64,000 nucleotides of DNA from Anthoceros angustus (lineage: Eukaryota > Plantae > Anthocerotophyta): assembly GCA_010909165.1 (NCBI GenBank), contig VJWM01000187.1, forward strand, positions 1 to 64,000. The letters run 5' to 3'. The notes under the pieces are model-generated. The model did not search any database. It worked only from the letters and a program-made list of their open reading frames with translations, and was not told the DNA's origin. Both the position numbers and the translations under genes were made by a program. Position 1 is the stretch's first letter; every line of letters begins with the position of its first letter. Below, piece after piece: positions 18,412-46,268 of this stretch.

Positions 18412-19123
18412 ATTCCTTGGTTTCAGTCTCCAATAGTGAGTGATCATACCATAAAGTATATACATACTTCGCCCATCGAACGAGGAGCCACGAAGCCACC
18501 CCGAGCAAAAAGGAACTCATAAGAGCAATCTTGTAGAAAAAAACTGCAAGCAAGGTACCTATTTGGCCCCAATAAAACCCCTTTTGGTACGCAATGAGAA
18601 GCCAAAATAGCTTGCGATTTACTAGTAGTACTTAAAAGAAATTGCTACGATTATTTAGATGTATATGTATAAAATATATATACAAAAAAGTTTATAAAAG
18701 ATATGCAAGATTTATATTAATAGTTTTATTCTTTGAGCAAAGAACATTGAAGACTCTAAAAACTTTGAAGCTAGCCTTGGATGGAACTGTGGATGAAGTA
18801 CACGTGCGCGTCTAGAGGGCAACATTGACTCCTGTCCCGCCGTCCGTGTATGCTATTTAGGGAGCGTGACGTGTACGCGGTTTGGGCGTTTCACTCGTTT
18901 TGGGTAAGACCCGCACCCGCTGGCGCGTGGCCGCCACACTCCGTGGCCACGTCGGACGGCGCTCTCATCCGCCCATGACCGCACCCCGAGTTCCAACCCA
19001 GGACCCAGGGAACGCGAATATGGGCCACCCAATTTCCCCAAAGATGGACACCTGGCCGCGTTCCCCCGCCACTCTCTCGCCGCCACCTCCGTCCCGTCGC
19101 CCCTGGACATCCTCTCACCCCGA

Positions 19124-19184
19124 CATGCTCTCTCATGGCCCGGCCATGCTCTCTCATCGCCCGGCCATGCTCTCTCATGGCCCG
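19124..19184. repeat. 21-bp tandem repeat x3 in bTHX-CBP60 intergenic region
   Basis: CATGCTCTCTCAT(G/C)GCCCGGC repeated. Confidence 0.9.
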
Positions 19185-20230
19185 CCGTCCGCGGATGGGC
19201 TCACCACACGAAAATACGTGTACTTGTTCGATACGCCTGAAAGACAAATATGACATGATGTGCGCAAAGACGAGAGACGGGGAGCAGTCCGGCCAAGAGC
19301 CAAGCTGGTGTGAAAGTGAGGGGTAGGTGGGTTTAGGAGAAGAAGGTTTAGGAAGGGCGTTGTTTGCGGGGCACGGAAACGGAAGCGGCAGCCAGTCCGC
19401 CTCGGAAGCATCTAGATATTATTGAGCCAGAGACAGACAGCAAGGTGGGCCGCGGGTGGGCCCGGGGCCGGTGACTGAGTAGTGAGAGGGGGCGGCATCA
19501 TGTATCCCACCCCGGGCCCTCTCCCTCTCCCTCTCCCCTAATGCTCCCTCTGCTTTTGGCCTTGTCCAGTTCACGACTAGACTCGGAGTCGGACGCGAAG
19601 GTCGCGCGCAGCATCGCAGGCAGCTGCTGCATGCCGTGGTGCCCCGGAGCTGCCCCTCGAACTGCGAGCACGTGCAGCGGCCGCCCCCCGGCGCCTGCCT
19701 CTGCCCCTGCCGCTGCCTCTGCCTCTGCCGCTGGCCTCCTCGCTCGCATCTTCCCGACCCGCGTCTTGCTTCCGTCTGCGTGTTGACGCGCATCTCGCCG
19801 CCCGCCTGGGGTTTGAACCGGGGAGCTTCGGGGAAGGACGCGGGCGAATTCGGTGCCTCCTGCTGTGGGCCTCTCCGCTCCCGCCATGTGCGCTCTGTTG
19901 CTTGGAGCTTCCACCGCAACGCGAGGGCAAGGCATGTGATCTGCAAGGAAGCAAGGAGGAAGAGGAGGAAGCAGGCAAGGTGAACGAGGATCACGTTGCC
20001 TTGACCCAGCCGCCGTAGCCTGTACGTTGTCGGGCCGGAAGGAGAGGGGAGGAGGGGAATCTGCTGAACGCGCCGGGATTCAAGAGCCCCGGAGGATACC
20101 GGACTCGGATCCGTTAGAGGATTTGCGCTAGGGACCTTCCTGGCGAGAGTCCCATGCCCTGCCTCGCACAGGAGCTGCTTCCGGCCACTGCCTGCCTTCG
20201 TAGCACGGTGGTGCACCACCAGACCTGGCC

Positions 20231-23178
20231 ATGAAACTGGGAATGGCAAGAGAGAAACGGCCCTTGGAGCAGGAGACAGCCAAGGAGAGCTTGCCTGAAG
20301 AGAAGCGTCCTCGTCCTGCGCTTGCCAGGTGCGCCCGGCTCCCCTTCGTGGATTCTCACCGCCCGCGCTGTCGCGCATTTTTCCCTGGCTGCTGTAGATT
20401 TGCCGCTTCTTGGACGAGGGGCGTTGGGGGATGCGGCAGGGGTGTGGGACGGCGGGCTGACCTTGCTTTCTGACCGCTTGTGTGGCTGTGTTGGTCGTGG
20501 AGCAGCGTGATTGTCGAAGCTGTGAAATTGGATAGTCTTCAGAAGTTGTGCTCGACTTTGGAGCCACTGCTGCGGCGAGTGGTACGCGTTTTGTGAGTTA
20601 AGTTGTGGTTTTTGGCCGGGTCTTGAAGTGGCGGTGCCTCACTGCGGCCTGCCGCTGGTGTGTAGGTTGGAGAGGAAGTCGAACGGGCTTTGGCGAAGTT
20701 GGCTCCTGCTCGGATTGGGGGCAGGTATGTGGCGTGACCTCACGGCTGTGGTGTCGGGGCTGTTTCTGTTACCCTGGCGTGGTGGATGCGTTTGGCTGAG
20801 GCTTTGTTGCGCTTGCAGGACGTCGCCGAAGCGCATACAGGGGCCTGATGCCAAGAGCTTTCGGCTTCAGTTCAGGAACCGGTTGGCGCTCCCCTTGTTC
20901 ACAGGGAGCAAAGTTGAAGGCGAGCAGGGTTCGGCCATCCATGTCGTGCTGCAGGATGCAGCGACCGGGCAGGTGGTTACTAGTGGCCCCGAGTCGGCTG
21001 CGAAGCTGGAGGTCATAGTTCTTGAAGGGGACTTTTCTGCGGACGATGAGGATGACTGGACGCAGGAGGACTTCGAGACCCATGAGGTCCGTGAGCGGGA
21101 GGGCAAGAGGCCACTCCTGACAGGAGACCTCACTGTGACTCTGAAGGAGGGAGTGGGGACCCTCGGGGAGCTCACCTTCACGGACAACTCCAGCTGGATA
21201 CGGAGCCGGAAGTTCAGGCTCGGAGTTAAGATATCTTCTGGCTACTGCGAGGGTGTTCGCATTCGTGAGGCGAAGACTGAGGCTTTTACTGTGAAAGACC
21301 ATCGTGGGGAACGTAAGTCCCTCGCGTTTGTACATTTTGTCCGTGCCCCGTTCGGCAGTTTGCGAACGTGGCTTCAGAATGTAACGCCTGTCGCTGTATT
21401 TTCTCGTACATGTGGCGCTCGTTCCTTTTGTTTCGAGCTGTGGGGTGAATGCTAAGTGCCTGTTGTTGTTTATGTTCTACAGTGTACAAGAAGCATTATC
21501 CCCCTGCCTTGAATGACGAGGTTTGGCGTTTGGATAAGATTGGGAAGGATGGAGCCTTCCATAAAAGGCTCAATCTAGCTGGGATTCAGACTGTCGAAGA
21601 CTTTCTGCGCCTGGTGGTCATGGATCCACAGAAGCTGCGGAATGTGAGACTCGTTCATTTTCCTGGGCTAAGTTGCTGCAGCTTTGTTAAGCCCATCAGT
21701 ATCTGAACTGCGCCGTTGGAGTTGTGCAGACTCTCGGAAATGGTATGTCCAACAAGATGTGGGACGGGACTGTTGAACATGCCAAGACCTGTGTGCTGAG
21801 CGGAAAGCTGCATGTTTATTATGCTGACGAGAAGCAAAATATTGGAGTCATATTCAACAATATCTTTCAGCTTATGGGCTTAATTGCGGATGGCCAATAT
21901 ATGTCCGTGGATTCCCTCTCTGACAGTGAAAAGGTTCGCTCAGGACTCGGGTATCAATTGCAATTGTATGTTTAGGTCGCAAATGGGCAGCTTTCTGACT
22001 TGAATGTGCTGTGTGATTCAGGTTTATGTGGACAAGCTAGTGAAGGTCGCCTATGAGAACTGGGAGAATGTGGTTGAGTATGATGGTGAGGCGCTTATTG
22101 GTGTGAAGCCCAACAAGTTGAAGGGCATCAATACACATACTGAGGAACCTCTGAATGCATCTCGCAATTCTCAGCCTTCTCAACCAATGAACCAGGGCGC
22201 TAACCAACAAGCAGCAGTTTCACAAACAGTTCCTGTACAGAGGGCCAATACTGTTCCTTCTGCTGCTGCAAGCGGGACTGGTATTACTCTTCATCCGCCC
22301 AGAAATAAGTTGCTCTGGGGTGTGGCTACATTTTGAAGTTGTGCCCCATGTAGGGTACCGCTCTGTCCGCATCTTCCAGGCAGTCTTGTTTCAATTGATT
22401 GCTAGTGCCCAGTGTTACATTAGGTGAATTTATTGCTGGAATATTGCTTTGGGGTGTGTCTGACGAGTCCTCCAATCTTCCTTTGGTGTGTGTAGGAATG
22501 ACACCTGGTCAGATGTATGTGTCTGATCAGCAGAAGCTCATGGCCCATAAGTATCAGGGCCAGGGTCAGCAGCTTAGGGATGATCAACATCAGATGATGT
22601 TAGGAACCGGCTTGAATATGAACCTAGCTTCTGCAGGTCAGCCTGCAGTGGATATGCATGGCAATGTGACCCTGACCGGACTTGCCTTAGGACATGGACC
22701 TCCACAAAGTGGGATGTCTTCAATGGCATACCCAGCTACGAGCTCAAGTAGTATGCAACCTGGGAGTGTGAACATAGGTGGTGGAGACTGGAATCGATAT
22801 AAGGATATATTGAGACAAGAGAGCTTTCGAGGCAATCAGGTGGATGAGATGATTTTTGAGGAAGATATTCGTGCCAAGAGTTTGGAAATGTTGGATAATG
22901 AAGATATGCACATGCAGATTCAGCAATTGTTGCGAATGTTTAATGGGGGTCAAGGGGATCAAACAAATTTGAGCTATCCTTTACAAGGAGATGAGAATTA
23001 TTCCTTTAGTGGCTTCCCTCCCAACACTCCTGATTCTTTGATGATAGAGAAACCAAGGCCCAATGGCAAGGCAAATGTCGGCTGGCTCAAATTAAAAGCT
23101 GCTTTGCGCTGGGGCATCTTCATTAGGAAGAGGGCAGCCACTAGAAGGGCCCAACTTGAAGAAGTGGATGATGATTAG
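20231..23178 (+). CDS. CBP60: Calmodulin-binding protein 60 (CBP60b/c/d-like transcription factor), multi-exon
   Basis: [83 protein letters not shown]|[25 protein letters not shown], and the C-terminal CaM-binding [21 protein letters not shown]. Confidence 0.96.
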
Positions 23179-25476
23179 TCCTGATGGCCGTAGGCTGGCA
23201 TGTTTGCAGCGATGGGGTTGATGTCCAGCTGTAGGCTTGGTGTCACTATATTGTGCACTTGCGATCAGGTCTACAGCTGACACAACTCACATCGTGACCC
23301 CCACCTTTGAAAGCAAATCTCCGGCTTGACCCACAGGTGCCTTGGGTGTGCACTTCGGATGTTGTTGCACCAGTGATTGCTGTCATCAGATCAGAGATTC
23401 ACAGTTCTAGAGCTGACCGTTTGGTTTAAAGCTGCTCTGATTGGAACGTCTTCTTTTTTTGAATTTTGCTCTGGAGCTTGTCTCTCTCTCAATTGCTAGA
23501 AGGTTGGCACACTGTTATGTATATGTACAGGAATCTTGAAGTCAGTTGGCATGGACACTGTGGACCCAAGAGGATGTCTGTAGCCATGGTCACTATGGTG
23601 GCAAGGTCATTTTGAAGAGTCAGTCTCATGGGATCGCCTTGCGGTGTTGTTGGGTTGTCTCTCTGGTTCTCATTTATGCACCTGCCTTCAGGCTTGTGGA
23701 TCATGTTAGTGTGACCACGATTCCTACTAGAAGAGCATCTCTTTGGAAACTATTGCCATCCATGTCACTTGATCTGGGTACCTTGCACTGAGCCTTGGTA
23801 GTTCAGGTTTGGTGGAGTTGGAAATCACTGAGTCATAGACTGGCAGTTGGTAGCCTGCTCAATTTAGGTAGACATTGTTTTGGAGGGATCCCTGTAAAAT
23901 TGTTGTGATATCACACTTCCTGACACGTGACTCAATTTAATGAAGTGTATCCTCCCTTAATTTCATGGTTGGATGTTGTCACAGACACAAGAGTGTAGTT
24001 TGATGCCTGCTTTTCAGTACTAGCCTCTTGCCTACTTTCGTGCAGATTCAGCATTACTCACTATATCTCTGCTGACAGTGACGAGATCCAAGTCAAAGAC
24101 GTGATGGAGGCGTTAAGTCAATTCCTCGTTCAAATGTAGGAGTTCTAACGTCCGGTATCATTCTGATGCTGTTGATTCCTTGTGGGTTATCCACACCACA
24201 CTGCAGTCGGTTCCCCCCTGGTAACGTGCTGGATTCTTCAGTCCTGTTTTGGCCAGTTTGGTTTTGCATCTTGGATATCCATCAGCAAGCAATTCAGGCG
24301 TGAGGTGTACTGACTGGGGAATGCTGCAGTGGATGAGTTGGTGAGCGTGTGCTCTGACACGAGGGTTGGGACTGTGTTTCTAGGTGGTGCGTAAACTCCC
24401 CATGCTTTTTCAGCTGGGTGGAAATGTGCTAGTGGATGTTGACAATGCTGCTTGCATCTGACACGATGATATGGAGATTTTATAACCTTGAAGCAGTCGC
24501 TTGTGAAGGGTTCTCCATTAGTGTAAGCAAGGAATTTTCTTCAGAGTCCGCAGTTGCTTGAAAGTATCCTAGCCTCCACGGTTGTGTGAAGCAGATAGCC
24601 TGCGGCAACCCACTACCCCTTGCCGACGCAGGAAACAGGCCCTCCAGATTACAACGGATCACTGTCATTTATCTTTTCGAGGTTTCCCAGGTCCTGTGCA
24701 ATTAATTAACTCCACTGTGGAGGCGCAGTAATCGAGTCTGTCCTACAAAGTTAGTACCACTCGACAGTTAGTTGCTCAATTTCCTCTCCTGTAAAATTGC
24801 TGAAGAGCACTCAAATCTCAAATTCGATGTATTATGTTCAATTTTGACGGCGTGCACTCGTCGCTCGGTGTCTTATGGCTCACCTACCATCGTAGTATCA
24901 GCGTGGACCTTCCCAAAACAAATATCGAATTGATCTCGAAGCTTGCACTATCCATGAACGATTCAGACACAGCCAAAGCTAGCTTTGCTGAATCTGCGCA
25001 CCCACCTACTCTGCGGTGCAAGGCCTACACAATGTAAGCATGATATGGGCTCCGGTTCTCCAGGTCGAGTAAGGATGTTGGGAAGGCGCATGTGCGATTT
25101 GTAGATTCACGCAACCGAAGTCATAGATGATGTGCGTAATGCTGGAGCAATCGCTCCCTCAACTAAGGGCTTGTGATTTTAACTCTTACATCGACATGGA
25201 TTGGGTGGTACATGGGTGTACCACTGTACAAAAGGTAGCAACTTGCAACAGAATTCGATACGTGAACAAGTGTTAGAGCCTTCCTGGAGGCACACGTGGG
25301 TCCCCAAGCTTCCTGTTGAAGCAGCCCGCTGTTTGAAGGCGACTTTGTCTCCTCCCCGGGCTCCCCCTGTATACACTATGAGGCAACATATGCAATCCTC
25401 ACTCGGATTGAAGCATTCAAGCTGGAGCAGTCTATGAGGAGTTGAAGAGCAGCTGGATGTTTGGGATTATTTCTGA

Positions 25477-26940
25477 ATGGAGAGGCTGACAGTAGTGAGC
25501 ATTCATTTGGGTGCTGCATTCTGTACCCTTGCTTATGGCAAAGCAAGCGACTTCTGCGACTGGCCCATGGCCAGGGAGAGGGAGAGGGAGACCGGCGTGG
25601 TCCAGCCTACCAGTCTCTACTACGTCAAGACCAATGTTTCGCCTGGAGGTCCTGATACAGATGAATCTGATTCTGCTGGGTCTGAAGGTGGTAATTCAGG
25701 TGATTCTGATTCTGAAGCAGAGTATGAGGCTACACACTGGGGATGGGGTGCGGAACTGCGTCATGAAGAGGACCTGGTAGCCTTAGCACGCTCCTCGTCG
25801 GAAACAAGCAACGGCCTGTATGTGACCAAATTTTTGACCTGGGGGCATCTTGCCTCAAGCAGGGCGCCGGCCCGAGGGTGGTGGCAGGGAGAGCAGAAAT
25901 TTGCAAGTCCAGGGGACCTTCCCCAAGGGCTGTCACTGGTCACTGTTATCAGCGACTACCTCAGCCAGCTCGCTGGCTTCGCCGTTGATGATGTGAATCG
26001 GAGGTATTCTAGCGACATCACGATGGGGGACATCCAGTGGTGTTTCACTGTGCCAAGCATTTGGGATGATTCTGCACTCAAGACCTTCCAGCAGAATGTG
26101 GAGTTGGCGGGCATAGTGAATGGCCCCTTTTGCCCGCCACAAGCTGCAGCTCAAGCAAGTTCTCATCCTCTGCTCTTTGTTCTGGAGTGGGAAGCTGCAG
26201 CACTGTCTTGCTTTAGGGAAGTGAGCATGGAGGAAGGATCTGAGGTGTTAGGGGTGGATGTTGGAAGTGACACTACCAACATTGTCATTTTGAAGGAGCA
26301 TCAAGGAGGCTTCGTTCTTGTGGAGGGACGCTCTGCTGATGGTTGTTGCATCAGTGATGTGGACAAGAGCTTCTACGACATGCTGCGGGCAAGGATTGGC
26401 TCAGCCTGCTTCGATGACATGGAGCGGCAGAACCCCGTTTTCAGGAGGCACATGCAGGACATGTGGGAAGCCCTGCGTAATAGCTATGGCGGGGACGGAG
26501 ACCCGAACTACTTGGAGTTGCCTCGAACTCACACTGTGCAAATTCCTTGGGAGGCCTACGACCGTGGCAGAGATAACGTTGTGGAGGATTATGACGAAAT
26601 CGAGGTAGACATGAGGCTGATACTGGATCCCGTGGCAGAGAAAATCATCCAGCTGATCCAAGAGCAGTTGTCAAGGCCAGCTGTGAAGGGACTCTTTCTG
26701 ATGGGGGAATCCTCGCTACCAGGTTACCTGGGGCTGAAGATGAAGGCAGCCTTCGGAACCAAGTTCGGTGATCGCATGAGGATCCCGCCCGATCCCCGCA
26801 GTGCAATGTGCCATGGAGCTGTTACATTCGGGTTATCCCCTGCCTTGCAAGCATCCCGTAGGACCTACGAGCTGACGCTCCAGAGACCCTGCTCCCTCTT
26901 TGACTATCCCAAGCTCAATGTTTGGACTGCTTTGGTTTAA
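25477..26940 (+). CDS. HSPA12-like (Hsp70/actin-fold) nucleotide-binding domain with degenerate ATP motifs; 5' part of an Hsp70-like/RING fusion gene
   Basis: Intronless 487-aa ORF with HSPA12-type motifs PTSLYY...WGW, IQWCFTVPSIWDD, LEWEAAALSC, VDVGSDT, LFLMGE and AMCHGAV. The stop is created by the patchwork insertion at 26936. Confidence 0.8.
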   Translation: MERLTVVSIHLGAAFCTLAYGKASDFCDWPMARERERETGVVQPTSLYYVKTNVSPGGPDTDESDSAGSEGGNSGDSDSEAEYEATHWGWGAELRHEEDLVALARSSSETSNGLYVTKFLTWGHLASSRAPARGWWQGEQKFASPGDLPQGLSLVTVISDYLSQLAGFAVDDVNRRYSSDITMGDIQWCFTVPSIWDDSALKTFQQNVELAGIVNGPFCPPQAAAQASSHPLLFVLEWEAAALSCFREVSMEEGSEVLGVDVGSDTTNIVILKEHQGGFVLVEGRSADGCCISDVDKSFYDMLRARIGSACFDDMERQNPVFRRHMQDMWEALRNSYGGDGDPNYLELPRTHTVQIPWEAYDRGRDNVVEDYDEIEVDMRLILDPVAEKIIQLIQEQLSRPAVKGLFLMGESSLPGYLGLKMKAAFGTKFGDRMRIPPDPRSAMCHGAVTFGLSPALQASRRTYELTLQRPCSLFDYPKLNVWTALV

Positions 26941-28076
26941 AGCTGCTCTGATTGGAACGCTTTCTTTTTGAATTTTGCTCTGGAGCTTGTCTCTCTCAAT
27001 TGCTAGAAGGTTGGCACACTGTTATCAGCGACTACCTCAGCCAGCTCGCTGGCTTCGCCGTTGATGATGTGAATCGGAGGTATTCTAGCGACATCACGAT
27101 GGGGACATCCAGTGGTGTTTCACTGTGCCAAGCATTTGGGATGATTCTGCACTCAAGACCTTCCAGCAGAATGTGGAGTTGGCGGGCATAGTGAATGGCC
27201 CCTTTGCCCGCCACAAGCTGCAGCTCAAGCAAGTTCTCATCCTCTGCTCTTTGTTCTGGAGTGGGAAGCTGCAGCACTGTCTTGCTTTAGGGAAGTGAGC
27301 ATGGAGGAAGGATCTGAGGTGTTAGGGGTGGATGTTGGAAGTGACACTACCAACATTGTCATTTGAAGGAGCATCAAGGAGGCTTCGTTCTTGTGGAGGG
27401 ACGCTCTGCTGATGGTTGTTGCATCAGTGATGTGGACAAGAGCTTCTACGACATGCTGCGGGCAAGGATTGGCTCAGCCTGCTTCGATGACATGGAGCGG
27501 CAGAACCCCGTTTTCAGGAGGCACATGCAGGACATGTGGGAAGCCCTGCGTAATAGCTATGGCGGGGACGGAGACCCGAACTACTTGGAGTTGCCTCGAA
27601 CTCACACTGTGCAAATTCCTTGGGAGGCCTACGACCGTGGCAGAGATAACGTTGTGGAGGATTATGACGAAATCGAGGTAGACATGAGGCTGATACTGGA
27701 TCCCGTGGCAGAGATAACGTTGTGGAGGATTATGACGAAATCGAGGTAGACATGAGGCTGATACTGGATCCCGTGGCAGAGAAAATCATCCAGCTGATCC
27801 AAGAGCAGTTGTCAAGGCCAGCTGTGAAGGGACTCTTTCTGATGGGGGAATCCTCGCTACCAGGTTACCTGGGGCTGAAGATGAAGGCAGCCTTCGGAAC
27901 CAAGTTCGGTGATCGCATGAGGATCCCGCCCGATCCCCGCAGTGCAATGTGCCATGGAGCTGTTACATTCGGGTTATCCCCTGCCTTGCAAGCATCCCGT
28001 AGGACCTACGAGCTGACGCTCCAGAGACCCTGCTCCCTCTTTGACTATCCCAAGCTCAATGTTTGGACTGCTTTGG
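26936..28076 (+). repeat. Patchwork insertion 1 (copies of 23425-23518 and 25950-26935, plus an internal 68-bp duplication)
   Basis: Junction microhomologies TTTGG (26931-26935 = 23420-23424), CACTGTTAT (27017-27025 = 23510-23518 = 25941-25949) and CCGTGGCAGAGA (27635/27703/27771). Confidence 0.92.
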
Positions 28077-28804
28077 AACTGGTTCTCGAGAAGCGCTCTG
28101 AGTTCGATGAGAGTTTGAGGTCTTGTCTCGACGCTATCCACATGGCTGGGATCGAAGCTGTCCACAGTGCGGATTCGTCAGAAGCCATTGTAGCTTCCCT
28201 CATGGAAACGCATGACCACAGCATCCGGCATTCGAAACTTGTCATGGAGGCAGTGGTGGAGCTTCAGTCTAGGAGACTGCGGCACAGCCAGTCAGAGATG
28301 GAGACAGCGCATGCTGTTACCAAATCGGAGAGAGACACTTTGCGAGCGGAGATGAGGGCAGCCGAGTCGTTGATACAGTCACAGAGATTGGATCACGAGG
28401 AAAAGCTGCAAACATTGCAGGACCAGATGTTGGAGGCCATCACGGCTTCTGAACTTTCCTTCGCGGAGGAGATGAACCAACTGCGGGCTCAGTATCTCTC
28501 TTTCTACGCTGAACAGGACACGCTGAAAGCGGAGAAGGACAGGATCGAAGCTGAGAAACAGAACATTGAGGTTGCAGCGGCCCTTGAGCGTGATGTGTTT
28601 GTGAGAGAGAAAGCTCGTCTTGAAGAAGCAGCCCGAGAGCACATGTCATGCCAGATCTGTGAGGACGAACCCCGCAATGTGGTGATACTTCCATGCGGTC
28701 ATGCTCAGTTTTGTGGCGTTTGTTTGGCTAAGCATCGCATGGCAAATCAAACATGCCCAACGTGCAGAGTGACTATCAAGGAAGTTTTGCCTTTCTTTTC
28801 CTAA
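27722..28804 (+). CDS. 3' part of the Hsp70-like fusion gene: coiled coil plus C3HC4 (IAP-like) RING finger
   Basis: After WTALELVLEK comes a long heptad-rich helix, then CQICEDEPRNVVILPCGHAQFCGVC...CPTCR at the C-terminus. Confidence 0.85.
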   Translation: MEDYDEIEVDMRLILDPVAEKIIQLIQEQLSRPAVKGLFLMGESSLPGYLGLKMKAAFGTKFGDRMRIPPDPRSAMCHGAVTFGLSPALQASRRTYELTLQRPCSLFDYPKLNVWTALELVLEKRSEFDESLRSCLDAIHMAGIEAVHSADSSEAIVASLMETHDHSIRHSKLVMEAVVELQSRRLRHSQSEMETAHAVTKSERDTLRAEMRAAESLIQSQRLDHEEKLQTLQDQMLEAITASELSFAEEMNQLRAQYLSFYAEQDTLKAEKDRIEAEKQNIEVAAALERDVFVREKARLEEAAREHMSCQICEDEPRNVVILPCGHAQFCGVCLAKHRMANQTCPTCRVTIKEVLPFFS

Positions 28805-29020
28805 CTTCCTTCTCAATTACAAGTAGCAGCAACAACTCGGGGCCCGGTTGTCATCCTTCAAATTTGTGGCTGTCTTGTGGTACATGTAGAATCATAATAT
28901 TGTGTAGGGATCAAGGGTGTCGTTTGTGGTTCTATGTTAGGAAGGGTTTGCTTATATAGGGGTCCCTTGCCTGTATAAGACCTCCATAGCTAAGCTCTAG
29001 TACTTAGTTGTACATGTAGC

Positions 29021-29213
29021 ATCGCAAAATTGGGGAGCATGTATATACGTGTCGAAGAATGAATGTGTCGAAGCACGTCGTGGGAGACGTGGACAAATTT
29101 TTTGGATTTGAATTTTATCGCAAAATTGGGGAGCATGTATATACGTGTCGAAGAATGAATGTGTCAAAGCACGTCGTGGGAGACGTGGACAAATTTTTTG
29201 GATTTGAATTTTA
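29021..29213. repeat. 96-bp direct tandem repeat x2
   Basis: ATCGCAAAATTGGGGAGCATGTATATACGTGTCG at 29021 and 29117. Confidence 0.93.
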
Positions 29214-30003
29214 TTTAAATTTGAGGTCAGGTGGGCAAACATTCTCTTGGCACGTTCTTGCTACCGTCACACAAGCCCTGTGATCGCAAATCATATCATA
29301 TGTTGCAAACCATATGCCCTGAAAGATGCACGTATCTACGTTCTGTTGTCTTGTGGGATGTTTCAACCGAGGATACGCAGTGTAGGAAACCGGCGGGCAA
29401 GACAGCTGCCTCGTGTTTCATACACGACTGCAGCCGGCTCCCATTACCGCCCAGTCAATCAAGGCTTCTGTGCAACCACGTCGCAACAGCGTCCCGGTCC
29501 CGCCGTACGCTTGTCCCGGTAAGATGCTGTGCACGGGACAGTGTGACTCGCTTTGCGACGTGTGCAAGCGCCCCTGGCAGAGGGATGGGCCAGGCTAAAA
29601 ATTCAGCGATATCAGTGCTGTCGATTTGCACAATTTGTAATATAGTGAAGGTAATCGTTACAAATGGGCAAATGAAGGAAACCTAACAAAACCAGTGGAA
29701 GTTGCAAGTGAACATACCTGGGCATGCCCACGGTTTGCTTCATCAGACACCAGCAAGTCTGTGGTCACTGCTCCAGCTATTTCCAAATCAGGATGCAAAG
29801 AATCTTGAGAGACAGGATGGAGAATTTGAGCCCAGGGCATTGAAGAGTCATGGAAGAACACGGGAGAATAGGTTTTCACACTTCTTGAGATGGAGGTACC
29901 GATAACCGCCATTTAACCACAGTAAAGTTTGGCTACGTAGCACTCTTATCCATTTTCAAGTGTCAGGGAGTCCGTCATGTGGGTCATCCTCTTCCGCCGC
30001 CCT

Positions 30004-31233
30004 TCAATCCGTGGTTTTCTTCCGCGTATTATTCCTTGTGGCCTTCCTTTTCTTCTTCTTCTTCCCATTGGTCGGTCCCAATGCCAAGGCTGTCCGCTTA
30101 ATCCTGGAGGAGTACGACATGGGAAATTAATATTGGAACAACTGCATTGTTGCTTTTGAGAAAATATTGTCCGAAAGAGTTACCTGACTTGCTCATTGTC
30201 TGGGGACTGGTTTCCTGCAAACGTCACCGGGATGTGAGGGCATTCGCGAAGGGGACGTGGCACGGATGAAAAACAGATGCTCAGCATGAAAACCAACCTT
30301 CGGTTATCTCCATAGCTTCATCCTCAACCTCCTCGATGGCGGGCACTTCCTCCTCCGCATCGCAAATGCCTTCAATTCTTCGACTGCTGACCATTCTAAT
30401 TCCTGCTGAAGATGAAGAAGCCCACCGGTCTCCACCGTCGTCCATATCCCACCGATGACCTACTGGAGGAACCCAGAAGTCTGGCTCGCTATTTTCAAGG
30501 TCAGGCAATGTGGGCCCTTCCTCCTCCACTAAAGCCTCATCCTCCTCGCAAGGCCGCTCCTCTGCAGCCTCATCCTCCTCGCAAGGCTGCTTCTCTGCAG
30601 CCTCATCCTCCTTACAACGCCCGCGCCCGGACGACTCTGAAGCCATGCCAGCACAACATTCAGCATGGTCGACACCTCTGTCAAAACCCAGAAAGGAGAT
30701 AACCCTCATGCTTCCACCACAAGCCGCTTGGCCTTCGGGCATTTCATCATGACAACTTACCAAGAGCCCGCATAAACTTCTTCCCTGTCATATGCTTCCA
30801 GACAGCTTCCTCGGTCTTGTTCAAAACCGCTCCTGTCATGGCGCACACGATCTTATCCCTGCCCCAAAAATTCACCGACCTCAGCTCAAAATCCCACTAC
30901 AACGTTACTAAAACCGACAGACACAACACTTTCGTGTCCACCATTGAAGTTCGGACTCCCACCAACGCAGAAATGAAAGACTACATCACCAGACCTCAGC
31001 AAAAGCTACGCCACATACCTATGAGTGGGGCTTTGCAGAAAGAAAGTCTTAAAGGGGCTACTCTCCGCCAGGGCCTTGTCAAAAAGTGCTGACTTGCACT
31101 TTTTCGTTGAGGCATAGTCCTTGGCATGGGCCTCCGGCATCTCGTGCCCGGTCTCGATGCATCTGACCCGCCCGTTATCCAACTTCACGTAGTGCACTTC
31201 TCCTATGATGCGAAAACCAGCTAGAGCTTCCAT
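30004..31233 (-). CDS. SURF2: Surfeit locus protein 2-like, multi-exon (start approximate)
   Basis: Exons read LDNGRVRCIETGHEMP...YASTKKCK, DKIVCAMTGAVLNKTEEAVWKHMTGKKF, EPDFWVPPVGHRWDMDDGGDRW and a basic tail KKKKKRK. Internal 33-bp repeats encode CEEDEAAEERP-like units. Confidence 0.85.
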
Positions 31234-31320
31234 GTCCCTTTTCCCAGCCACCCCTGGCCTTGATACCTGAAAATTCACAGAAACAATTCACACGACAGCT
31301 CCATCTCCTGCTCAAAACCC

Positions 31321-31402
31321 GCACAACCGAGGGCATCTCCAATTTAGGTCATCCCAGGCACAACCGAGGACATCACCAAATTAGGTCATCCGCAGGCACA
31401 AC
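31321..31402. repeat. ~37-bp tandem repeat x2.2 upstream of SURF2
   Basis: GCACAACCGAGG.CATC.CCAA.TTAGGTCATCC.CAG repeated. Confidence 0.85.
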
Positions 31403-32551
31403 CACAGACACAGATGACATACCCTCACAAAAAGCTTAAACTTAACCCTACAAAACCCGTAGCCAATTCTCTCATGGCGAGGCCCAACATGGATGACCAA
31501 CCAGCCGGCTCGGACAAGCCCGCAGCGTCCGAGAACCCACTGGCGACAGGGGGAGCCGGCACCGCAATCCTCCTCGGAGCCTTGGCTTCCGGACTCAACG
31601 TATACCTCCACCGCTTTGGTTCAACGATATCTGATCACGGCAATGCACATGCCAAACACATACTGATTCCACGTAACCGGCGCTGCAGAAACCCACATGG
31701 ACAGCGATGCAAATTATCTGGGTAGCGTTAGGTGCGTCGTTGCTCCTACTCCTTCGAGTCACACTCAGCTCTTCCTCACTCTCCTGCACGTCGTAATCCT
31801 CAGCGCCCTTGCCGTCAGCTTGTTTCTTCTTCTCCGCTGGTAAAATTTTGTGCCTTCATCCCACAGCAGTGTCTTGCAAACGATGGTCTTTCCACTAACA
31901 ACTTCTCGAATTCTGATTCCTTCCCCTCGCAGGTTTGTTGCTGAAACGGGATTGGTCTCCGTCCACGATCAGATGATCGAGCTCCAGCTCGTGCATCCCG
32001 CTCCAGAGTCCGGGAGTCACGTAGACTAACTTTCAAATTTCAGTACCATCCCCTAGCAGAGAGCAGAGATAGTTCGTATATGTTAACTTTGTTTTGTAGG
32101 AAGTAACATAAAATTCCATTAAAGTTGCTCGTCTCGACAGCATCTGAGAGATGCGACGAGGGGCTGCGGTAAATAAACAGGGCACGGGCTGGGCCTGTGG
32201 GAGCCATGCCCCGCCCTGCTGCCGTGGGCGTCTGAGATACACCTGTCTCCGGATCGTGAGCTTCGGAGGGCTGTCTGCGCAGGTTTGCTGTGCTGCGACA
32301 TCCAGAACAGCAGGCAGGAAGGAGAAACAAGCATCGGGCTCGGGGATGCGCACTCCAACTTCCTGTGGAGGAATAGGACGAGATCTGAATTGGGGGCTTT
32401 TGGGCACTGAATTGGACGCTGCCTCTATTTTGGCGGTCAGGCTTGAGGTTTATGGGCATGCAGGTGGAATCAAAGTTGGACTTGTAGGATGAGCTACATG
32501 GATGTGGAGTGAGGAGTCTGTGAGGTGTAATTGCGTGAGCCGGTCGTGGAG

Positions 32552-32716
32552 ATGAGGTGCCACTCGCTGCAAGCGTTGTGGGGCTCTGCGCCTCCGCATC
32601 ATGAGATCACTGCCATTCTGGGTTTGCAGGTTCCGTTGTCAATATGGACTGGAGCTGCGGACGGCGCTATTGCTGTTTGGAAATTGTCTCGCCCGGACTC
32701 TAACGTGCTGGAAAAG
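32552..32716 (+). other. Duplicate first coding exon of the WD40 gene, separated from the rest by patchwork insertion 2
   Basis: MRCHSLQALWGSAPPHHEITA...LEK|GTGAGT, identical to 36268-36432. Confidence 0.85.
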
Positions 32717-32769
32717 GTGAGTTGGATTGTGGTTGTGAGGGAGGTTTGTTTGGGTGGATTGTGGTGGCA

Positions 32770-34509
32770 GGAGAGCAGAAATTTGCAAGTCCAGGGACCT
32801 TCCCCAGTCACTGTCACTGGTCACTGTTATCAGCGACTACCTCAGCCAGCTCGCTGGCTTCGCCGTTGATGATGTGAATCGGAGGTATTCTAGCGACATC
32901 ACGATGGGGACATCCAGTGGTGTTTCACTGTGCCAAGCATTTGGGATGATTCTGCACTCAAGACCTTCCAGCAGAATGTGGAGTTGGCGGGCATAGTGAA
33001 TGGCCCCTTTGCCCGCCACAAGCTGCAGCTCAAGCAAGTTCTCATCCTCTGCTCTTTGTTCTGGAGTGGGAAGCTGCAGCACTGTCTTGCTTTAGGGAAG
33101 TGAGCATGGAGGAAGGATCTGAGGTGTTAGGGGTGGATGTTGGAAGTGACTACCAACATTGTCATTTGAAGGAGCATCAAGGAGGCTTCGTTCTTGTGGA
33201 GGAGGACGCTCTGCTGATGGTTGTTGCATCAGTGATGTGGACAAGAGCTTCTACGACATGCTGCGGGCAAGGATTGGCTCAGCCTGCTTGATGACATGGA
33301 GCAGCAGAACCCCGTTTTCAGGAGGCACATGCAGGACATGGGAAGCCCTGCGTAATAGCTATGGCGGGGACGGAGACCCGAACTACTTGAGTTGCCTCGA
33401 ACTCACACTGTGCAAATTCCTTGGGAGGCCTACGACCGTGGCAGAGATAACGTTGTGGAGGATTATGACGAAATCGAGGTAGACATGAGGCTGATACTGG
33501 ATCCCGTGGCAGAAAATCATCCAGCTGATCCAAGAGCAGTTGTCAAGGCCAGCTGTGAAGGGACTCTTTCTGATGGGGGAATCCTCGCTACCAGGTTACC
33601 TGGGCTGAAGATGAAGGCAGCCTTCGGAACCAAGTTCGGTGATCGCATGAGGATCCCGCCTGATCCCGCAGTGCAATGTGCCATGGAGCTGTTACATTCA
33701 GGTTATCCCCTGCCTTGCAAGCATCCCGTAGGACCTACGAGCTGACGCTCCAGAGACCCTCCCTCTTTGACTATCCCAAGCTCAATGTTTGACTGCTTTG
33801 GAACTGGTTCTCGAGAAGCGCTCTGAGTTCGATGAGAGTTTGAGGTCTTGTCTCGACGCTATCCACATGGCTGGGATCAAGCTGTCCACAGTGGATTCGT
33901 CAGAAGCCATTGTAGCTTCCCTCATGGAAACGCATGACCACAGCATCCGGCATTCGAAACTTGTCATGGAGGCAGTGGTGGAGCTTCAGTCTAGGAGACT
34001 GCGGCACAGCCAGTCAGAGATGGAGACAGCGCATGCTGTTACCAAATCGGAGAGACACTTTGAGCGGAGATGAGGGCAGCCGAGTCGTTGATACAGTCAC
34101 AGAGATTGGATCACGAGGAAAAGCTGCAAACATTGCAGGACCAGATGTTGGAGGCCATCACGGCTTCTGAACTTTCCTTCGCGGAGGAGATGAACCAACT
34201 GCGGGCTCATCTCTTTCTACGCTGAACAGGACACGCTGAAAGCGGAGAAGGACAGGATCGAAGCTGAGAAACAGAACATTGAGGTTGCAGCGGCCCTTGA
34301 GCGTGATGTGTTGAGAGAGAAAGCTCGTCTTGAAGAAGCAGCCTGAGAGCACATGTCATGCCAGATCTGTGAGGACGAACGCAATGTGGTGATACTTCCA
34401 TGCGGTCATGCTCAGTTTTGTGGCGTTTGTTTTGGCTAAGCATCGCATGGCAATCAAACATGCCCAACGTGCAGTGACTATCAAGGAAGTTTTGCCTTTC
34501 TTTTCCTAA
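32770..34509 (+). pseudogene. 5'-truncated, frameshifted copy of the Hsp70-like/RING gene
   Basis: Near-identical nucleotide sequence with many 1-3 nt deletions. It reads straight through ...ACTGCTTTGGAACTGG (~33793-33808), showing the uninterrupted form. Confidence 0.8.
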
Positions 34510-36485
34510 CTTCCTTCTCACCATATGGCAGCAACAACTCGGGGCCCGGTTGTCATCCTTCAAATTTGGCTGTCTTGTGGTACATGTAGAATCATAATAT
34601 TGTGTAGGGATCAAGGTGTGTTTGTGGTTCTATGTTAGGAAGGGTTTGCTTATATAGGGGTCCCTTGCCTGTATAAGACCTCCATAGCTAAGCTAGTACT
34701 TAGTTGTACATGTAGCATCGCAAAATTGGGGAGCATGTATATACGTGTCGAAGAATGAATGTCGAAGCACGTCGTGGAGACGTGGACAAATTTTTGGATT
34801 TGAATTTTATCGCAAAATTGTATAGTATACGTGTCGAAGAATGAATGTGTCAAAGCACGTCGTGGAGACGTGGACAAATTTTGATTTGAATTTTATTTAA
34901 ATTTGAGGTCAGGTGGGCAAACATTCTCTTGGCACGTTCTTGCTACCGTCACACAAGCCCTGTGATCGCAAATCATATCATATGTTGCAAACCATATGCC
35001 CTGAAGATGCACGTATCTACGTTCTGTTGTCTTGTGGGATGTTTCAACCGAGGACATCACCAAATTAGGTCATCCGCAGGCACAACCACAGACACAGATG
35101 ACATACCCTCACAAAAAGCTTAAACTTAACCCTACAAAACCCGTAGCCAATTCTCATGCGTTACGGCGAGGCCCAACATGGATGACCAACCAGCCGGCTC
35201 GGACAAGCCCGCAGCGTCCGAGAACCCACTGGCGACAGGGGGAGCCGGCACCGCAATCCTCCTCGGAGCCTTGGCTTCCGGACTCAACGTATACCTCCAC
35301 CGCTTTGGTTCAACGATATCTGATCACGGCAATGCACATGCCAAACACATACTGATTCCACGTAACCGGCGCTGCAGAAACCCACATGGACAGCGATGCA
35401 AATTATCTGGGTAGCGTTAGGTGCGTCGTTGCTCCTACTCCTTCGAGTCACACTCAGCTCCGCCTTCCCCTCACTCTCCCTGCACGTCGTAATCCTCAGC
35501 GCCCTTGCCGTCAGCTTGTTTCTTCTTCTCCGCTGGTAAAATTTTGTGCCTTCATCCCACAGCAGTGTCTTGCAAACGATGGTCTTTCCACTAACAACTT
35601 CTCGAATTCTGATTCCTTCCCCTCGCAGGTTTGTTGCTGAAACGGGATTGGTCTCCGTCCACGATCAGATGATCGAGCTCCAGCTCGTGCATCCCGCTCC
35701 AGAGTCCGGGAGTCACGTAGACTAACTTTCAAATTTCAGTACCATCCCCTAGCAGAGAGCAGAGATAGTTCGTATATGTTAACTTTGTTTTGTAGGAAGT
35801 AACATAAAATTCCATTAAAAGTTGCTCGTCTCGACAGCATCTGAGAGATGCGACGAGGGGCTGCGGGTAAATAAACAGGGCACGGGCTGGGCCTGTGGGA
35901 GCGGGGCACATGCCCCCCGCCCTGCTGCCGTGGGCGTCTGAGATACACCTGTCTCCGGATCGTGAGCTTCGGAGGGCTGTCTGCGCAGGTTTGCTGTGCT
36001 GCGACATCCAGAACAGCAGGCAGGAAGGAGAAACAAGCATCGGGCTCGGGGGATGCGCACTCCAACTTCCTGTGGAGGAATGCATAGGACGAGATTCGAA
36101 TTGGGGGGGCTTTTTGGGCACTGAATTGGACGCTGCCTCTATTTTGGCGGTCAGGCTTGAGGTTTATGGGCATGCAGGTGGAATCAAGAAGTTGGACTTG
36201 TAGGATGAGCTACATGGATGTGGAGTGAGGAGTCTGTGAGGTGTAATTGCGTGAGCCGGTCGTGGAGATGAGGTGCCACTCGCTGCAAGCGTTGTGGGGC
36301 TCTGCGCCTCCGCATCATGAGATCACTGCCATTCTGGGTTTGCAGGTTCCGTTGTCAATATGGACTGGAGCTGCGGACGGCGCTATTGCTGTTTGGAAAT
36401 TGTCTCGCCCGGACTCTAACGTGCTGGAAAAGGTGAGTTGGATTGTGGTTGTGAGGGAGGTTTGTTTGGGTGGATTGTGGTGGCA
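32770..36485 (+). repeat. Patchwork insertion 2 (copy of the un-inserted Hsp70-RING region to 29373, then 31371-32769)
   Basis: Junctions GTGGTGGCA (32761-32769 = 25878-25886; resumes 36477-36485) and CAACCGAGGA (35045-35054 = 29364-29373 = 31361-31370), which skips SURF2. Confidence 0.92.
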
Positions 36486-39400: not shown

Positions 39401-41794
39401 AGGTGCTACATTTGAGGTAGATCCACATTTTCATTGCTAACAATGTCATGAGGCTTGGCAACTTGGATTCATTGACATGTCTCCCATCTCTATCAACCAA
39501 CCATCAGCATCACTGAAAACTCCGGTTTTGCAGCCATGGAGAACATCTTCAGAATTTTGTGCTATGAGGTCACTTACCCTGGTGTCTCTTGCCCAGAGAC
39601 TGATTTTGCTTTCGAAACCAGCTTCATATGCATGCAGGTGATTGTTGCTGACATGGATTCCCCTGTGCCACATGGAGTTTCACATGAAGCCAAAGTTGAG
39701 AAGTTGGTTGTGTTGTTTCTGCCAAGCTAGGGTGTGTCTGATCTGTGCCGGCTGCTTGCAGTGAACTAGCTGGTTTCTACTCAAGAGGATTGGCTGAGAA
39801 GCTTCCAGGGGTTATCAGTCCCTGCCTTGAGGTTTGCACTGTAGCACCAATAAACCAGTAATAGCACCCACAGAATTTTTACTGCAACAGATACTAACTG
39901 ACTAGTATGAACGGTTTACAGATCTATACCTACTACTGGCAAGACCAAAGTGAGCATGTGCGAATGGCAGCTCGAACTCTATTTCACTGTGCAGCGTTGC
40001 GAGCTGTCCCACCAGTTCTTTGGGTGCAAAAAAGCTCAGAAGAGAAACTAGAGCCTACTGCTGACCAGGAAGGCGCGGAACAAGATGGTCTTTTACATTG
40101 GCTGGAGTCGTATGAAGACCAGTATTGGACTGTGATGGTTGGTGCTACCCGACAAGATGCTCAAGCTGCCAGGATAATTGTTGCATCTTCCTTGGCTGTT
40201 TGGTATCCCACCATCGTGCGACATGATGTGGCCAGGGTGGTGGCTCCGCTGCTGCTGAAGATGGTGAGGAATGCTAATGATAGACATGTGGCATCGGTAG
40301 CAGAAGTGCTCGCGGAGGGAATGACATCCACATGGCACGACATCATTGGCAATCAAATCCGGCACCTCATGGTGGATGTATTTGACCAAATTGAGCGTCT
40401 GAGCAATACAGGGGGGACGGTTCAGGATGGGGTGACATATCCACCTCCAGTTGCTCCTGCTGTAGCAATGGCAATTCGGGAAAGCCTGGTGGGCAATCTT
40501 CTCCCAAGCTTAGCCATGGCAGATGTGCCTGGATTTCTTCACATTGTACAAAATCAGCTCGATGCAACAGCTTCTGACTCACCTGTGCACCGCGTAGCAT
40601 TGACCGTGCTCATCAGATGTGTTCGGGGGGCTCCAAAAGCTGTTCTCCCACATCTTGCTCAGGTATGCATACTGATTGGACGATCTGGTACATTTCAATT
40701 AGATAAGCTGATCTGGTAAGTAAAAACACGTCACCAAGAAACAGAAAAAGTCTTGCCTTATGTTAAGTCTGGTATTAATCAGGTCACATTGGCTTATTCT
40801 TTGAAGCAGGTAACGTCGCTGCTTCTACAAACAATGGAGACGGGAAACTTTTCATTACGCAAGCAGTGTATGCAGACTGCCATGGCAACCATTCGAGAGA
40901 TGGTTAGGGTCTTCCCCATGGTAGCTCTGTATCCAGGTTCTCCGACATCAAATGCAAAACTAGCTGTGGGTGATCCTGTTGGCGATATTCATCTGTTGGC
41001 CATCCATGTTTATGACCTCCAAAAGTAAGCTGAAAGTTTCCTTACTTCACACCTTTTTGTTTGAAGGTTGACGTTGAAGTGGAGCTTATGTATAACCTTT
41101 TCCGCATCGCAGCATAGCCCTTCTCAAAGTTCTGGATGCAAGCGGACCGCCAGGTCATCCAGCACTTTTGTCATTTGATGATTCGTCCTCCACCATCAGT
41201 GACATTTCGGCGCTCACCTTCTCATCCGATGGCGAGGTAATCCTTGTGTTGAGATTCGATCCCCTCTAGATTGAGCTGATTGTCAGAGTGGTCCCTCGGA
41301 ACGCCGCAGCTGCAGACTGATGTGCCACACTTCTCTTCAGGGTTTGGTAGCTTTCTCACAGAACGGTCTTATTATCCGATGGTGGTCTTTGGGGGCAGTC
41401 TGGTGGGAAAGATTGAGTAGAACGCATGTACCTGTGCAATGCACAAAACTCCTGCTGGTGCCACCTTGGGCAGGCTTTTCTCCAAGGTCGTCTTCCTCCA
41501 GCATCATTCACTTGGCATCCATTACTCATCCTCCCAAAAGTGAAGATCAACCTAAGGTAAGTTTTTAACCTATTGGGTGCAGTCGCATGAACTTGTCGTT
41601 AATCTTGATATTCTCAGTGACATTTTGCCTTTATGGTGGCAATGCAGGCCGCTCATCGCAGGAGGCTTAGTGAAGACTCCCCTGTCAAACTTGCTTACCA
41701 TTCTTTCGATCTGTCATATCGCTTGGAATGGCGAGCAGACAAAGTTGTCGTCCTCCTACATCACGGTCAGGAGGTTGGCTCTTTCCAACTGTAA
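36268..41794 (+). CDS. Transducin/WD40-repeat protein, WDR7 (rabconnectin-3 beta)-like, multi-exon
   Basis: LLCGHTAAI, GHCRRRRRLPPWVG, FAGHTAPVLCLAEH, LLSGSMDSCVCIWD, YWQDQSEHVRMAARTLFHCAA, GLVAFSQNGLIIRWWSLG and terminal DLSYRLEW...GSFQL* (stop 41792-41794). Confidence 0.92.
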
Positions 41795-46239: not shown

Positions 46240-46268
46240 GTTGCCTTGCCTTGCCTTGCCTTGCCTTC
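46240..46268. repeat. (CCTTG)n microsatellite
   Basis: GTTGCCTTGCCTTGCCTTGCCTTGCCTT; copied again at ~50710. Confidence 0.85.

What the first reader, a model, noticed from the sequence alone, without database searches (positions are those of the whole stretch)
25477..28804. Candidate novel chaperone-fold E3 ligase: HSPA12-like domain + coiled coil + RING in one ~728-aa protein
Seen: removing the 26936-28076 insertion joins ...KLNVWTAL to ELVLEK... in frame (486 + 242 aa), and the copy at ~33793 shows this join directly. The product is an Hsp70/actin-fold NBD with HSPA12-type motifs, then ~190 aa of mostly coiled coil, then a C-terminal C3HC4 RING in place of a canonical substrate-binding domain. 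Established: Hsp70s normally recruit a separate E3 (CHIP/STUB1); IAP-type C-terminal RINGs are dimeric E3 modules. Inference: this fusion could be a self-contained client- or effector-sensing ubiquitin ligase. I do not recognise the architecture from angiosperms.
Basis: partly seen in the sequence, partly recalled or inferred. Interest (0 to 1): 0.78.

Follow-up and report, generated by a model that had tools for sequence, protein, structure and literature searches.

The report
Dead Hsp70 fold fused to RING
A plant-like genome carries an intact, likely transcribed gene that joins an Hsp70-shaped domain with a degraded ATP site to a RING finger, so it likely works as a ubiquitin ligase that uses the disabled chaperone fold as a docking module, while the apparent insertion and second copy are likely assembly errors.

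Summary
The 728-aa fusion is real. The 'insertion' (26936-28076) and the copy at 32761-35054 are most likely assembly artefacts. They are patchworks of nearby sequence with 5-12 bp shared at each junction and mostly small deletions. A spliced-RNA contig (0 mismatches), a DNA contig of the same sample and a second species all lack the insertion, and the second species shows one copy.

Residues 3-456 are predicted to fold as an Hsp70 nucleotide-binding domain (pLDDT 85.7; Z 28.9) of the HSPA12-like family of non-seed plants. The RING has all eight zinc ligands.

The protein is not a working chaperone-ligase as first proposed. The substrate-binding domain is gone, and only 6 of 15 nucleotide-site residues are kept (76 of 86 relatives keep 14 or more). 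The domain is still under purifying selection (dN/dS about 0.26 over 160 codons), and the RING stays in frame in the second species.

None of the best 150 of 694 relatives has a RING. Degenerate sites are enriched in relatives fused to signalling domains (6 of 12 against 7 of 116).

Best reading: a lineage-restricted RING E3 with a pseudo-ATPase docking or sensing module. Ligase activity and partners are untested.

The parts
25477..26935 (+). Coding sequence, first part (codons 1-486 and the first base of codon 487); no intron
   Evidence: an in-frame stop lies directly before the ATG; covered by X1 contig 2
28077..28804 (+). Coding sequence, second part (rest of codon 487 to the stop): helical region, RING, tail
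25483..26844 (+). HSPA12-like Hsp70 nucleotide-binding fold, residues 3-456
   Evidence: AlphaFold2 with a 136-row alignment, pLDDT 85.7, pTM 0.87; VIA-align Z 28.9, rmsd 3.7, 348 aligned to 4gni_B; Foldseek E 9.1e-14
25504..25527 (+). Degenerate phosphate-1 loop: H10, A13, C16, T17 where the family has D (93 of 98), T (90 of 99), S (84 of 99), G (94 of 99)
25639..25716 (+). Acidic Ser/Gly-rich loop (about residues 55-80) at a family-variable insertion point
   Evidence: lower pLDDT
25834..25836 (+). L120 in place of a family-conserved Lys (109 of 116), inferred to be the catalytic Lys70/71 equivalent from the order of structural elements
   Evidence: the equivalence is inferred, not shown by a call
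26257..26280 (+). Degenerate phosphate-2 loop: S264, D265, N268 where the family has G (119 of 133), G (123 of 133), D (126 of 134); D261, G263, T266 kept
   Evidence: no amino-acid change listed here in organism B
26704..26721 (+). Degenerate adenosine motif: E411, S412, P415 where the family has G (117 of 123), F (110 of 123), S (109 of 122)
26845..26935 (+). Linker and first strand-like remnant of the family's C-terminal beta domain; homology ends here (fusion breakpoint near residues 470-487)
28079..28648 (+). Proline-free, charged, probably helical region (residues 488-677); 29 codons shorter, in frame, in organism B
28649..28801 (+). C3HC4 RING (C678, C681, C693, H695, C699, C702, C713, C716), Arg717 after the last Cys, aromatic tail F726-F727
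   Evidence: Pfam PF13920 E 6e-13, 48.8 bits against a cut-off of 27; best PDB match cIAP2 RING 3eb5, E 3.7e-6
26936..28076 (+). Apparent insertion: likely assembly artefact made of copies of 23420-23518, 25941-26644 and 26562-26935
31361..35054 (+). Likely artefactual duplication: error-rich copy of 35045-36485 (31361-32769) followed by an error-rich, 5'-truncated copy of this gene (32761-35054)
   Evidence: skipped by X3 and by an X1 joint
25305..29084 (+). Extent of the 2639-nt X1 contig (likely the transcript; it lacks the 1141 bp)
   Evidence: table 8; contigs cannot show true ends or strand

Best explanation
The locus is a single intact gene for a 728-aa protein that likely acts as a RING ubiquitin ligase and likely uses a predicted, probably ATPase-dead Hsp70 fold as its docking module instead of as a chaperone. 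Shown: the frame, the RING motif, the loss of the family's C-terminal beta domain, the substitutions at the nucleotide site, and constraint between two species. Inferred: (1) the Hsp70 fold no longer hydrolyses ATP and has no substrate-binding domain, so it cannot cycle on unfolded clients; (2) it keeps surfaces that bind proteins which normally bind HSPA12-like ATPases (cofactors, paralogues or their targets); (3) the long helical region spaces and probably pairs two chains so that the RING and its aromatic tail can activate an E2-ubiquitin conjugate, as in IAP-type RINGs; (4) bound partners, or the protein itself, are ubiquitinated. The gene likely arose when a copy of an HSPA12-like gene was joined, just behind the ATPase fold, to a helical-RING segment.
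For: Intact single gene: X1 contig with 0 differences across the join, X2 skip, X3 single colinear copy. Fold; the profile of relatives hits DnaK at E 8.7e-30; Atlas first hit 0.96 to an HSP70 cluster. Family: relatives named 'heat shock 70 kDa protein 12A(-like)' in Selaginella and Ceratopteris. Dead site: 6 of 15 chosen nucleotide-site positions kept, while 76 of 86 fully covered relatives keep 14 or 15; positions were mapped on the DnaK alignment. Constraint: codons 247-406 against organism B give 17 synonymous and 18 non-synonymous changes, dN/dS 0.26, binomial p 0.0003, no stop; from 26037 to the stop codon the only length difference is 87 bp, in frame. RING: all eight ligands, Pfam above the cut-off, Arg after the last Cys, aromatic tail; an Arg linchpin and a tail Phe are needed for activity in studied RINGs (PMC12326332, PMC6349121; passages read). 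Parallel: among relatives, a degenerate site (under 80% of positions kept) occurs in 6 of 12 fused to signalling domains against 7 of 116 others, Fisher p 0.0002.
Against: No ligase activity, nucleotide binding or partner was tested. E237, D261 and T266 (catalytic-side residues) are kept, so nucleotide binding is not excluded. The loss at nucleotide positions (6 of 15 kept) is not significantly greater than at other conserved positions (38 of 56 kept; Fisher p 0.07; 0.04 only after adding K120 post hoc), and the branch is long (1.28 against a median of 0.66), so part of it is general divergence. dN/dS rests on 160 codons of one species pair and does not cover the RING; the RING ligands of organism B were not read. 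No heptad pattern was shown. The fusion-degeneracy test ignores relatedness, uses hits selected with a degenerate query, and some fusions may be gene-calling joins. The fold model leans on the alignment: alone the sequence gave pLDDT 35. Some RINGs with intact ligands are inactive (PMC11992055, search listing only).
Confidence: 0.55

Rival explanations
1. Immune decoy-sensor: the dead Hsp70 fold is bait for microbial effectors that target Hsp70-family proteins, and binding switches the RING on or off (degrading the effector, or ending self-turnover).
For: Dead-site relatives are preferentially fused to kinase, caspase-like and EAD10 domains; Hsp70-family proteins are proposed effectors in bacterial conflict systems (PMC7159879, passages). 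All but 1 of 17 changed residues between the two species fall in 314-402, none in 249-313, as expected of a variable binding surface. The gene lies next to a CBP60 gene (immune role of CBP60 recalled).
Against: dN/dS is 0.26, not near or above 1; there is one syntenic copy, not a variable array; the other neighbours (SURF2, WDR7-like) are housekeeping genes.
Confidence: 0.15
2. One reading: an ATP-cycling chaperone that recognises misfolded clients and ubiquitinates them itself (Hsp70 and CHIP in one chain).
For: Complete Hsp70 ATPase fold and an intact RING in one chain; E237, D261, T266 kept.
Against: The substrate-binding domain is absent; phosphate-1 Asp and Thr, two family-conserved Lys, both phosphate-2 Gly and the adenosine Gly are replaced. 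A review notes that derivatives lacking the substrate-binding domain cannot act as canonical Hsp70s (PMC13580251, passages).
Confidence: 0.07
3. The chain is a scaffold or dominant-negative regulator: the dead fold sequesters cofactors of intact HSPA12-like paralogues, and the RING is a binding module or only turns the protein itself over.
For: Paralogous sequence exists in both organisms (loose ends in X1 at 25706-25737; a second X3 contig); pseudo-enzymes often regulate active paralogues (own knowledge).
Against: The RING keeps the Arg linchpin position and an aromatic tail typical of active ligases.
Confidence: 0.15
4. A young, decaying chimeric gene with no selected function, or a locus that really is disrupted by the 1141 bp and duplicated.
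For: Long branch and many changes at conserved sites; four upstream ATGs in the X1 leader, one overlapping the start; no close relative in the protein collections.
Against: dN/dS 0.26 with p 0.0003; frame kept over about 1540 bp in organism B, whereas the neighbouring stretch 29614-31410 shows 50 gap letters; three runs lack the insertion.
Confidence: 0.08

Closest known systems
HSPA12A/B-like atypical Hsp70s, here the unstudied non-seed-plant clade (e.g. Selaginella XP_024520364.1, Ceratopteris KAH7427868.1, Diphasiastrum KAJ7539870.1, Sphagnum KAH9538504.1)
   Same: The ATPase-fold domain aligns over residues 5-466 at about 28-36% identity to the 24 relatives aligned, with the family's motifs.
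   Different: Most relatives keep the nucleotide site and a C-terminal beta domain; this protein has lost both and ends in a helical region plus RING. 0 of the best 150 relatives has a RING. HSPA12 function is described as unknown (PMC13580251, passages).
IAP/MDM2-type C-terminal C3HC4 RING ligases (cIAP1/2, XIAP, MDM2, RNF123; Pfam PF13920); plant LOG2/MGRN1- and BOI-type helical-RING proteins (recalled, not tested)
   Same: RING at the extreme C-terminus, His-x3-Cys spacing, Arg after the last Cys, aromatic tail.
   Different: No BIR or other known recruiter; an Hsp70 fold sits in its place; the tail is one residue shorter than in cIAP2.
Hsp70 plus CHIP/STUB1 (recalled)
   Same: Hsp70-family fold and a ubiquitin-ligase module acting together.
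   Different: CHIP is a separate U-box protein that relies on Hsp70's substrate-binding domain and ATP cycle; both are missing here.
HSPA12-like fusions to kinase, caspase-like, vWA, SH3, SAM or EAD10 domains seen among the hits (14 of 150 carry an extra Pfam domain)
   Same: The Hsp70 fold used as a module beside a signalling domain, often with a degenerate nucleotide site.
   Different: The output here is a RING; none of those has one.
Ssz1/HSPA14 and HSPA13 (Hsp70 derivatives with a reduced or missing substrate-binding domain)
   Same: Repurposed Hsp70 fold acting through protein contacts (PMC13580251, passages); Ssz1 is the top structural row, tied with canonical Hsp70s.
   Different: About 15% identity, another branch, no RING; the Ssz1 entry has ATP bound.

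Membership tests
Canonical Hsp70 chaperone | Actin/Hsp70 nucleotide-binding fold | tested here: met
Canonical Hsp70 chaperone | Intact phosphate-1, phosphate-2 and adenosine motifs | tested here: not met
   6 of 15 positions kept
Canonical Hsp70 chaperone | Beta-sandwich substrate-binding domain and lid | tested here: not met
   homology to relatives ends by residue 487; the C-terminal half matches none of the fetched relatives
HSPA12-like family | ATPase domain homologous to proteins annotated as HSPA12-like and nested among them | tested here: met
   phmmer E down to 6.9e-50; names; FastTree of 123 rows
HSPA12-like family | C-terminal beta domain without lid | tested here: not met
   so a derivative of the family, not a full member
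HSPA12-like family | CDD HSPA12-like NBD profile match | not testable with these tools
   no CDD library; Pfam HSP70 gave no hit for the query itself at E 0.1
C3HC4 RING E3 ligase (IAP/MDM2 type) | Eight zinc ligands in C3HC4 order and Pfam score above the cut-off | tested here: met
C3HC4 RING E3 ligase (IAP/MDM2 type) | Arg linchpin after the last Cys and aromatic residue in the C-terminal tail | tested here: met
   R717, F726/F727; roles from PMC12326332 and PMC6349121 (passages); the position of the linchpin is recalled
C3HC4 RING E3 ligase (IAP/MDM2 type) | E2-dependent ubiquitin transfer | not testable with these tools
   needs an in vitro assay
Coiled-coil RING proteins | Heptad-repeat coiled coil before the RING | tested here: inconclusive
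   Pro-free and charged, but no significant heptad signal in 25 windows of a crude test

The most novel reading that the evidence does not exclude
HSPA12-like Hsp70 folds with a dead ATP site are a recurrent sensor or decoy module of non-seed plants and other eukaryotes, wired to interchangeable outputs (kinase, caspase-like protease, EAD10, and here a RING ligase). This gene would be the first ubiquitin-ligase version, and its substrates would reveal the natural partners of the HSPA12 family, whose function is unknown.
Probability: 0.25. Interest if true: 0.78.

Novelty: new variant of a known kind. Interest (0 to 1): 0.5.

Why it matters
The function of HSPA12-type Hsp70s is described as unknown (PMC13580251). 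A natural fusion of their ATPase fold to a RING is a built-in trap: whatever the fold binds should be ubiquitinated, so a RING-dead versus wild-type comparison can identify the partners directly. It would also add a new kind of substrate recruiter to plant RING ligases. Limits: the gene is known from two related species only, domain shuffling is common in this family (14 of 150 relatives), and nothing biochemical is shown. Practical point: this assembly holds local duplications that break real genes, so gene models from it will miss or split this one.

Tried and rejected
No whole genome is held for this window, so paralogues and the origin of the RING could not be searched.

Word-based protein searches: the N-terminal part found none among 7996 candidates; the C-terminal ORF at longer lengths none among 7992; alignment A1 found 1 among 7995, without RING. 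These are weak negatives.

Pfam and PDB sequence search gave no significant hit for the N-terminal part alone. Single-sequence folding failed (pLDDT 35). The Atlas gave no usable hit for residues 100-378 of the C-terminal ORF.

Metagenome scans: C-terminal ORF, 43 pattern matches, none related; alignment A1, 8 loci from a scan that stopped at 2 of 64 parts, none with a RING motif in six frames.

Homodimer prediction for the helical-RING part: no verdict (score 0.31, mark 0.32), not used as evidence either way.

X6 (same species label, RNA guess) laid nothing: no evidence. No listed holder is on record as RNA; X1 is judged RNA only because its contigs skip GT..AG introns.

The IQ-TREE run did not finish; only FastTree was obtained (13 of 136 rows under 280 aa left out).

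Rejected: the 26936-27008 piece as an intron (it begins GT and ends AG, but it is a copy of 23425 onward and is followed by duplicated coding sequence). Rejected: a head-to-head GrpE-like partner as reported in earlier notes for other genomes; upstream lies the CBP60-side X1 contig up to 24844, only 460 bp from this gene's contig, and Pfam shows no GrpE-like match in the helical part.

Nine literature searches listed no paper describing an Hsp70-RING fusion. I saw listings only, except passages of PMC13580251, PMC7159879, PMC12326332 and PMC6349121; no supplements were read (Data S1 of PMC13580251 lists Hsp70 derivatives and may bear on novelty). UniProt/InterPro architectures could not be searched.
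Full report
1. The observation. The window holds an open frame at 25477-26940 (487 aa) and one at 27668-28804 (378 aa). The second frame by itself already runs from the end of the Hsp70-like domain into the RING.

2. The insertion and the second copy are most likely assembly artefacts. Self-comparison shows that the 1141 bp consist of a copy of 23420-23518, a copy of 25941-26644 and an exact copy of 26562-26935. The five junctions examined each share 5-12 bases with their source. The copy at 32761-35054 sits between two copies of the 5' end of the neighbouring WD40 gene. Differences between copies are mostly small deletions: 14 deletions (12 in repeat units) against 7 substitutions in 1060 columns of coding sequence. 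That pattern is expected of unpolished long-read consensus (own knowledge). Contigs of four public runs were laid on 23000-37000. X1 skips GT..AG introns in the neighbouring genes, so it is spliced RNA although not on record as such; it has one 2639-nt contig equal to 25305-26561 + 27703-29084 with no difference. X2 (DNA, same sample) skips 1142 bases there and gives no contig over most of the second copy. X3 (another organism) has one 19.4-kb contig with a single copy of the gene, then SURF2, then the WD40 gene. X6 laid nothing. X1 and X2 may be the sample behind the assembly; that weakens them as independent support for the gene but strengthens the artefact reading. Because the gene has no intron, transcription is likely rather than proven.

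3. The N-terminal domain. Pfam and PDB sequence searches miss it. A full HMMER scan finds 694 relatives at E up to 0.001, best 6.9e-50; the best 150 were examined. Of 30 looked up, 14 name an organism: 10 non-seed land plants, 2 green algae, 1 fungus, 1 fornicate, no seed plant; two are annotated as heat shock 70 kDa protein 12A(-like). In a FastTree of 123 rows the query groups with five unnamed proteins (support 98) among the non-seed-plant rows, on a long branch. The organism is therefore likely a non-seed plant; this was not determined further. A profile of 136 sequences hits DnaK at E 8.7e-30. AlphaFold2 with that alignment gives pLDDT 85.7, and the model matches Hsp70 ATPase domains over residues 3-455 (Z 28.9, rmsd 3.7, 348 aligned; Foldseek E 9.1e-14).

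4. It is not a working chaperone. The relatives continue into a C-terminal beta domain that aligns with the DnaK substrate-binding domain. The query follows them only to about residue 470-487. At 15 family-conserved positions mapped to the DnaK nucleotide site, the query keeps 6; of 86 fully covered relatives 76 keep 14 or 15 and three are as degenerate. Replaced: D10H, T13A, G264S, G265D, D268N, G291C, K334R, G411E, S415P (family residue, query position, query residue); two further conserved lysines (positions 42 and 120) are lost too. Kept: E237, D261, T266. Against this reading, the query also differs at 18 of 56 other conserved positions, so the excess at the site is not significant (p 0.07). 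Loss of hydrolysis is inferred; nucleotide binding is not excluded.

5. The gene is under selection. Against organism B, codons 247-406 show 17 synonymous and 18 non-synonymous changes on 102.5 and 377.5 sites: dS 0.19, dN 0.05, ratio 0.26, p 0.0003, no stop, and no amino-acid change at the nucleotide-site codons covered (35 of 36 differences were listed). From 26037 to the stop, organism B is 87 bp shorter, in frame, within the helical region, so the RING stays in frame with the ATPase fold. The N-terminal 187 codons and the RING residues of organism B were not read.

6. The C-terminal half. Residues 490-675 have no Pro and one Gly, but a crude heptad test found nothing significant: helical, coiled coil not shown. 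The RING (678-716) scores 48.8 bits on PF13920 (cut-off 27) and best matches cIAP2 among solved structures. It has Arg717 after the last Cys and two Phe in a short tail. Papers read in passages show that an Arg linchpin (PMC12326332) and a tail Phe acting across a dimer (PMC6349121) support ubiquitin transfer in such RINGs. Activity here is inferred.

7. How unusual is the architecture? No RING occurs in the 150 best relatives (Pfam; motif scan), in the further cluster members fetched (1 of 176 proteins, the query itself) or in 8 metagenome loci. 544 weaker relatives were not examined, and UniProt/InterPro could not be searched. Fusions as such are common: 14 of 150 carry another Pfam domain, six of them a kinase. 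Among 128 relatives with at least 12 of the 15 positions covered (22 dropped), a degenerate site occurs in 6 of 12 signalling fusions and 7 of 116 others (p 0.0002). This is not corrected for relatedness or for selecting hits with a degenerate query. Nine literature searches listed no Hsp70-RING fusion. A 2026 review calls HSPA12 function unknown and describes many Hsp70 derivatives with altered C-termini (PMC13580251, passages). Earlier notes of this scan mention a dead HSPA12-like domain in a fungal fusion and GrpE-like partners beside HSPA12-like genes; these are unchecked leads, and no such partner gene lies upstream here.

8. Mechanism and verdict. Most likely (0.55) the protein is a RING E3 whose recruiter is an ATPase-dead Hsp70 fold that binds partners of the HSPA12-like family. 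Rivals: immune decoy (0.15), scaffold or dominant-negative regulator (0.15), decaying chimera or truly disrupted locus (0.08), ATP-cycling chaperone-ligase (0.07). It is a derivative, not a full member, of the HSPA12-like family, and by motif a member of the C3HC4 RING family. It is a new variant of a known kind: a real, selected, apparently undescribed fusion, known from two related species and without biochemical evidence. Interest 0.5.

Noticed in passing
window 45665-56552: A second cluster of near-identical local duplications with the same deletion-rich spectrum (e.g. 17 deletions against 6 substitutions in 1145 columns); probably the same kind of assembly artefact. No reads were laid there.
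   Followed up: partly
window 25305-25489: Four upstream ATGs (25378, 25390, 25434, 25457) in the leader of the X1 contig; the last opens a short out-of-frame ORF that overlaps the main start. It could dampen translation.
   Followed up: no
window 19000-24844 (+), 29613-31400 (-), 35045-39440 (+): Neighbours: a CBP60-family gene with a long 3' region holding a spliced intron at 24219-24383, a SURF2 gene and a WDR7-like WD40 gene (the WDR7 label is my own recall). Organism B has the same order from this gene to the WD40 gene. The fusion gene has no intron, unlike its neighbours.
   Followed up: partly
window 25706-25737, 26407-26666, 28686: Loose ends show paralogous sequence: an HSPA12-like paralogue in X1 and X2 without the acidic loop, one in X3, and an X2 contig whose loose end may encode a related RING (reading frame ambiguous). 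Whether the paralogues carry a RING is unknown.
   Followed up: no
proteins P0020, P0032, P0033, P0034, P0060, P0112, P0082, P0111: HSPA12-like folds fused to protein kinase (6), caspase-like (1) or EAD10 (1) domains; 6 of these 8 have a degenerate nucleotide site. P0020 is from the moss Ceratodon.
   Followed up: partly
window 29021-29214: Two tandem copies of a 96-bp unit just after the gene; the X1 contig ends inside it.
   Followed up: no
window 26416-26682 (codons 314-402): 16 of 17 amino-acid differences to organism B in the stretch examined lie here, in the lobe II region, and none in codons 249-313.
   Followed up: partly
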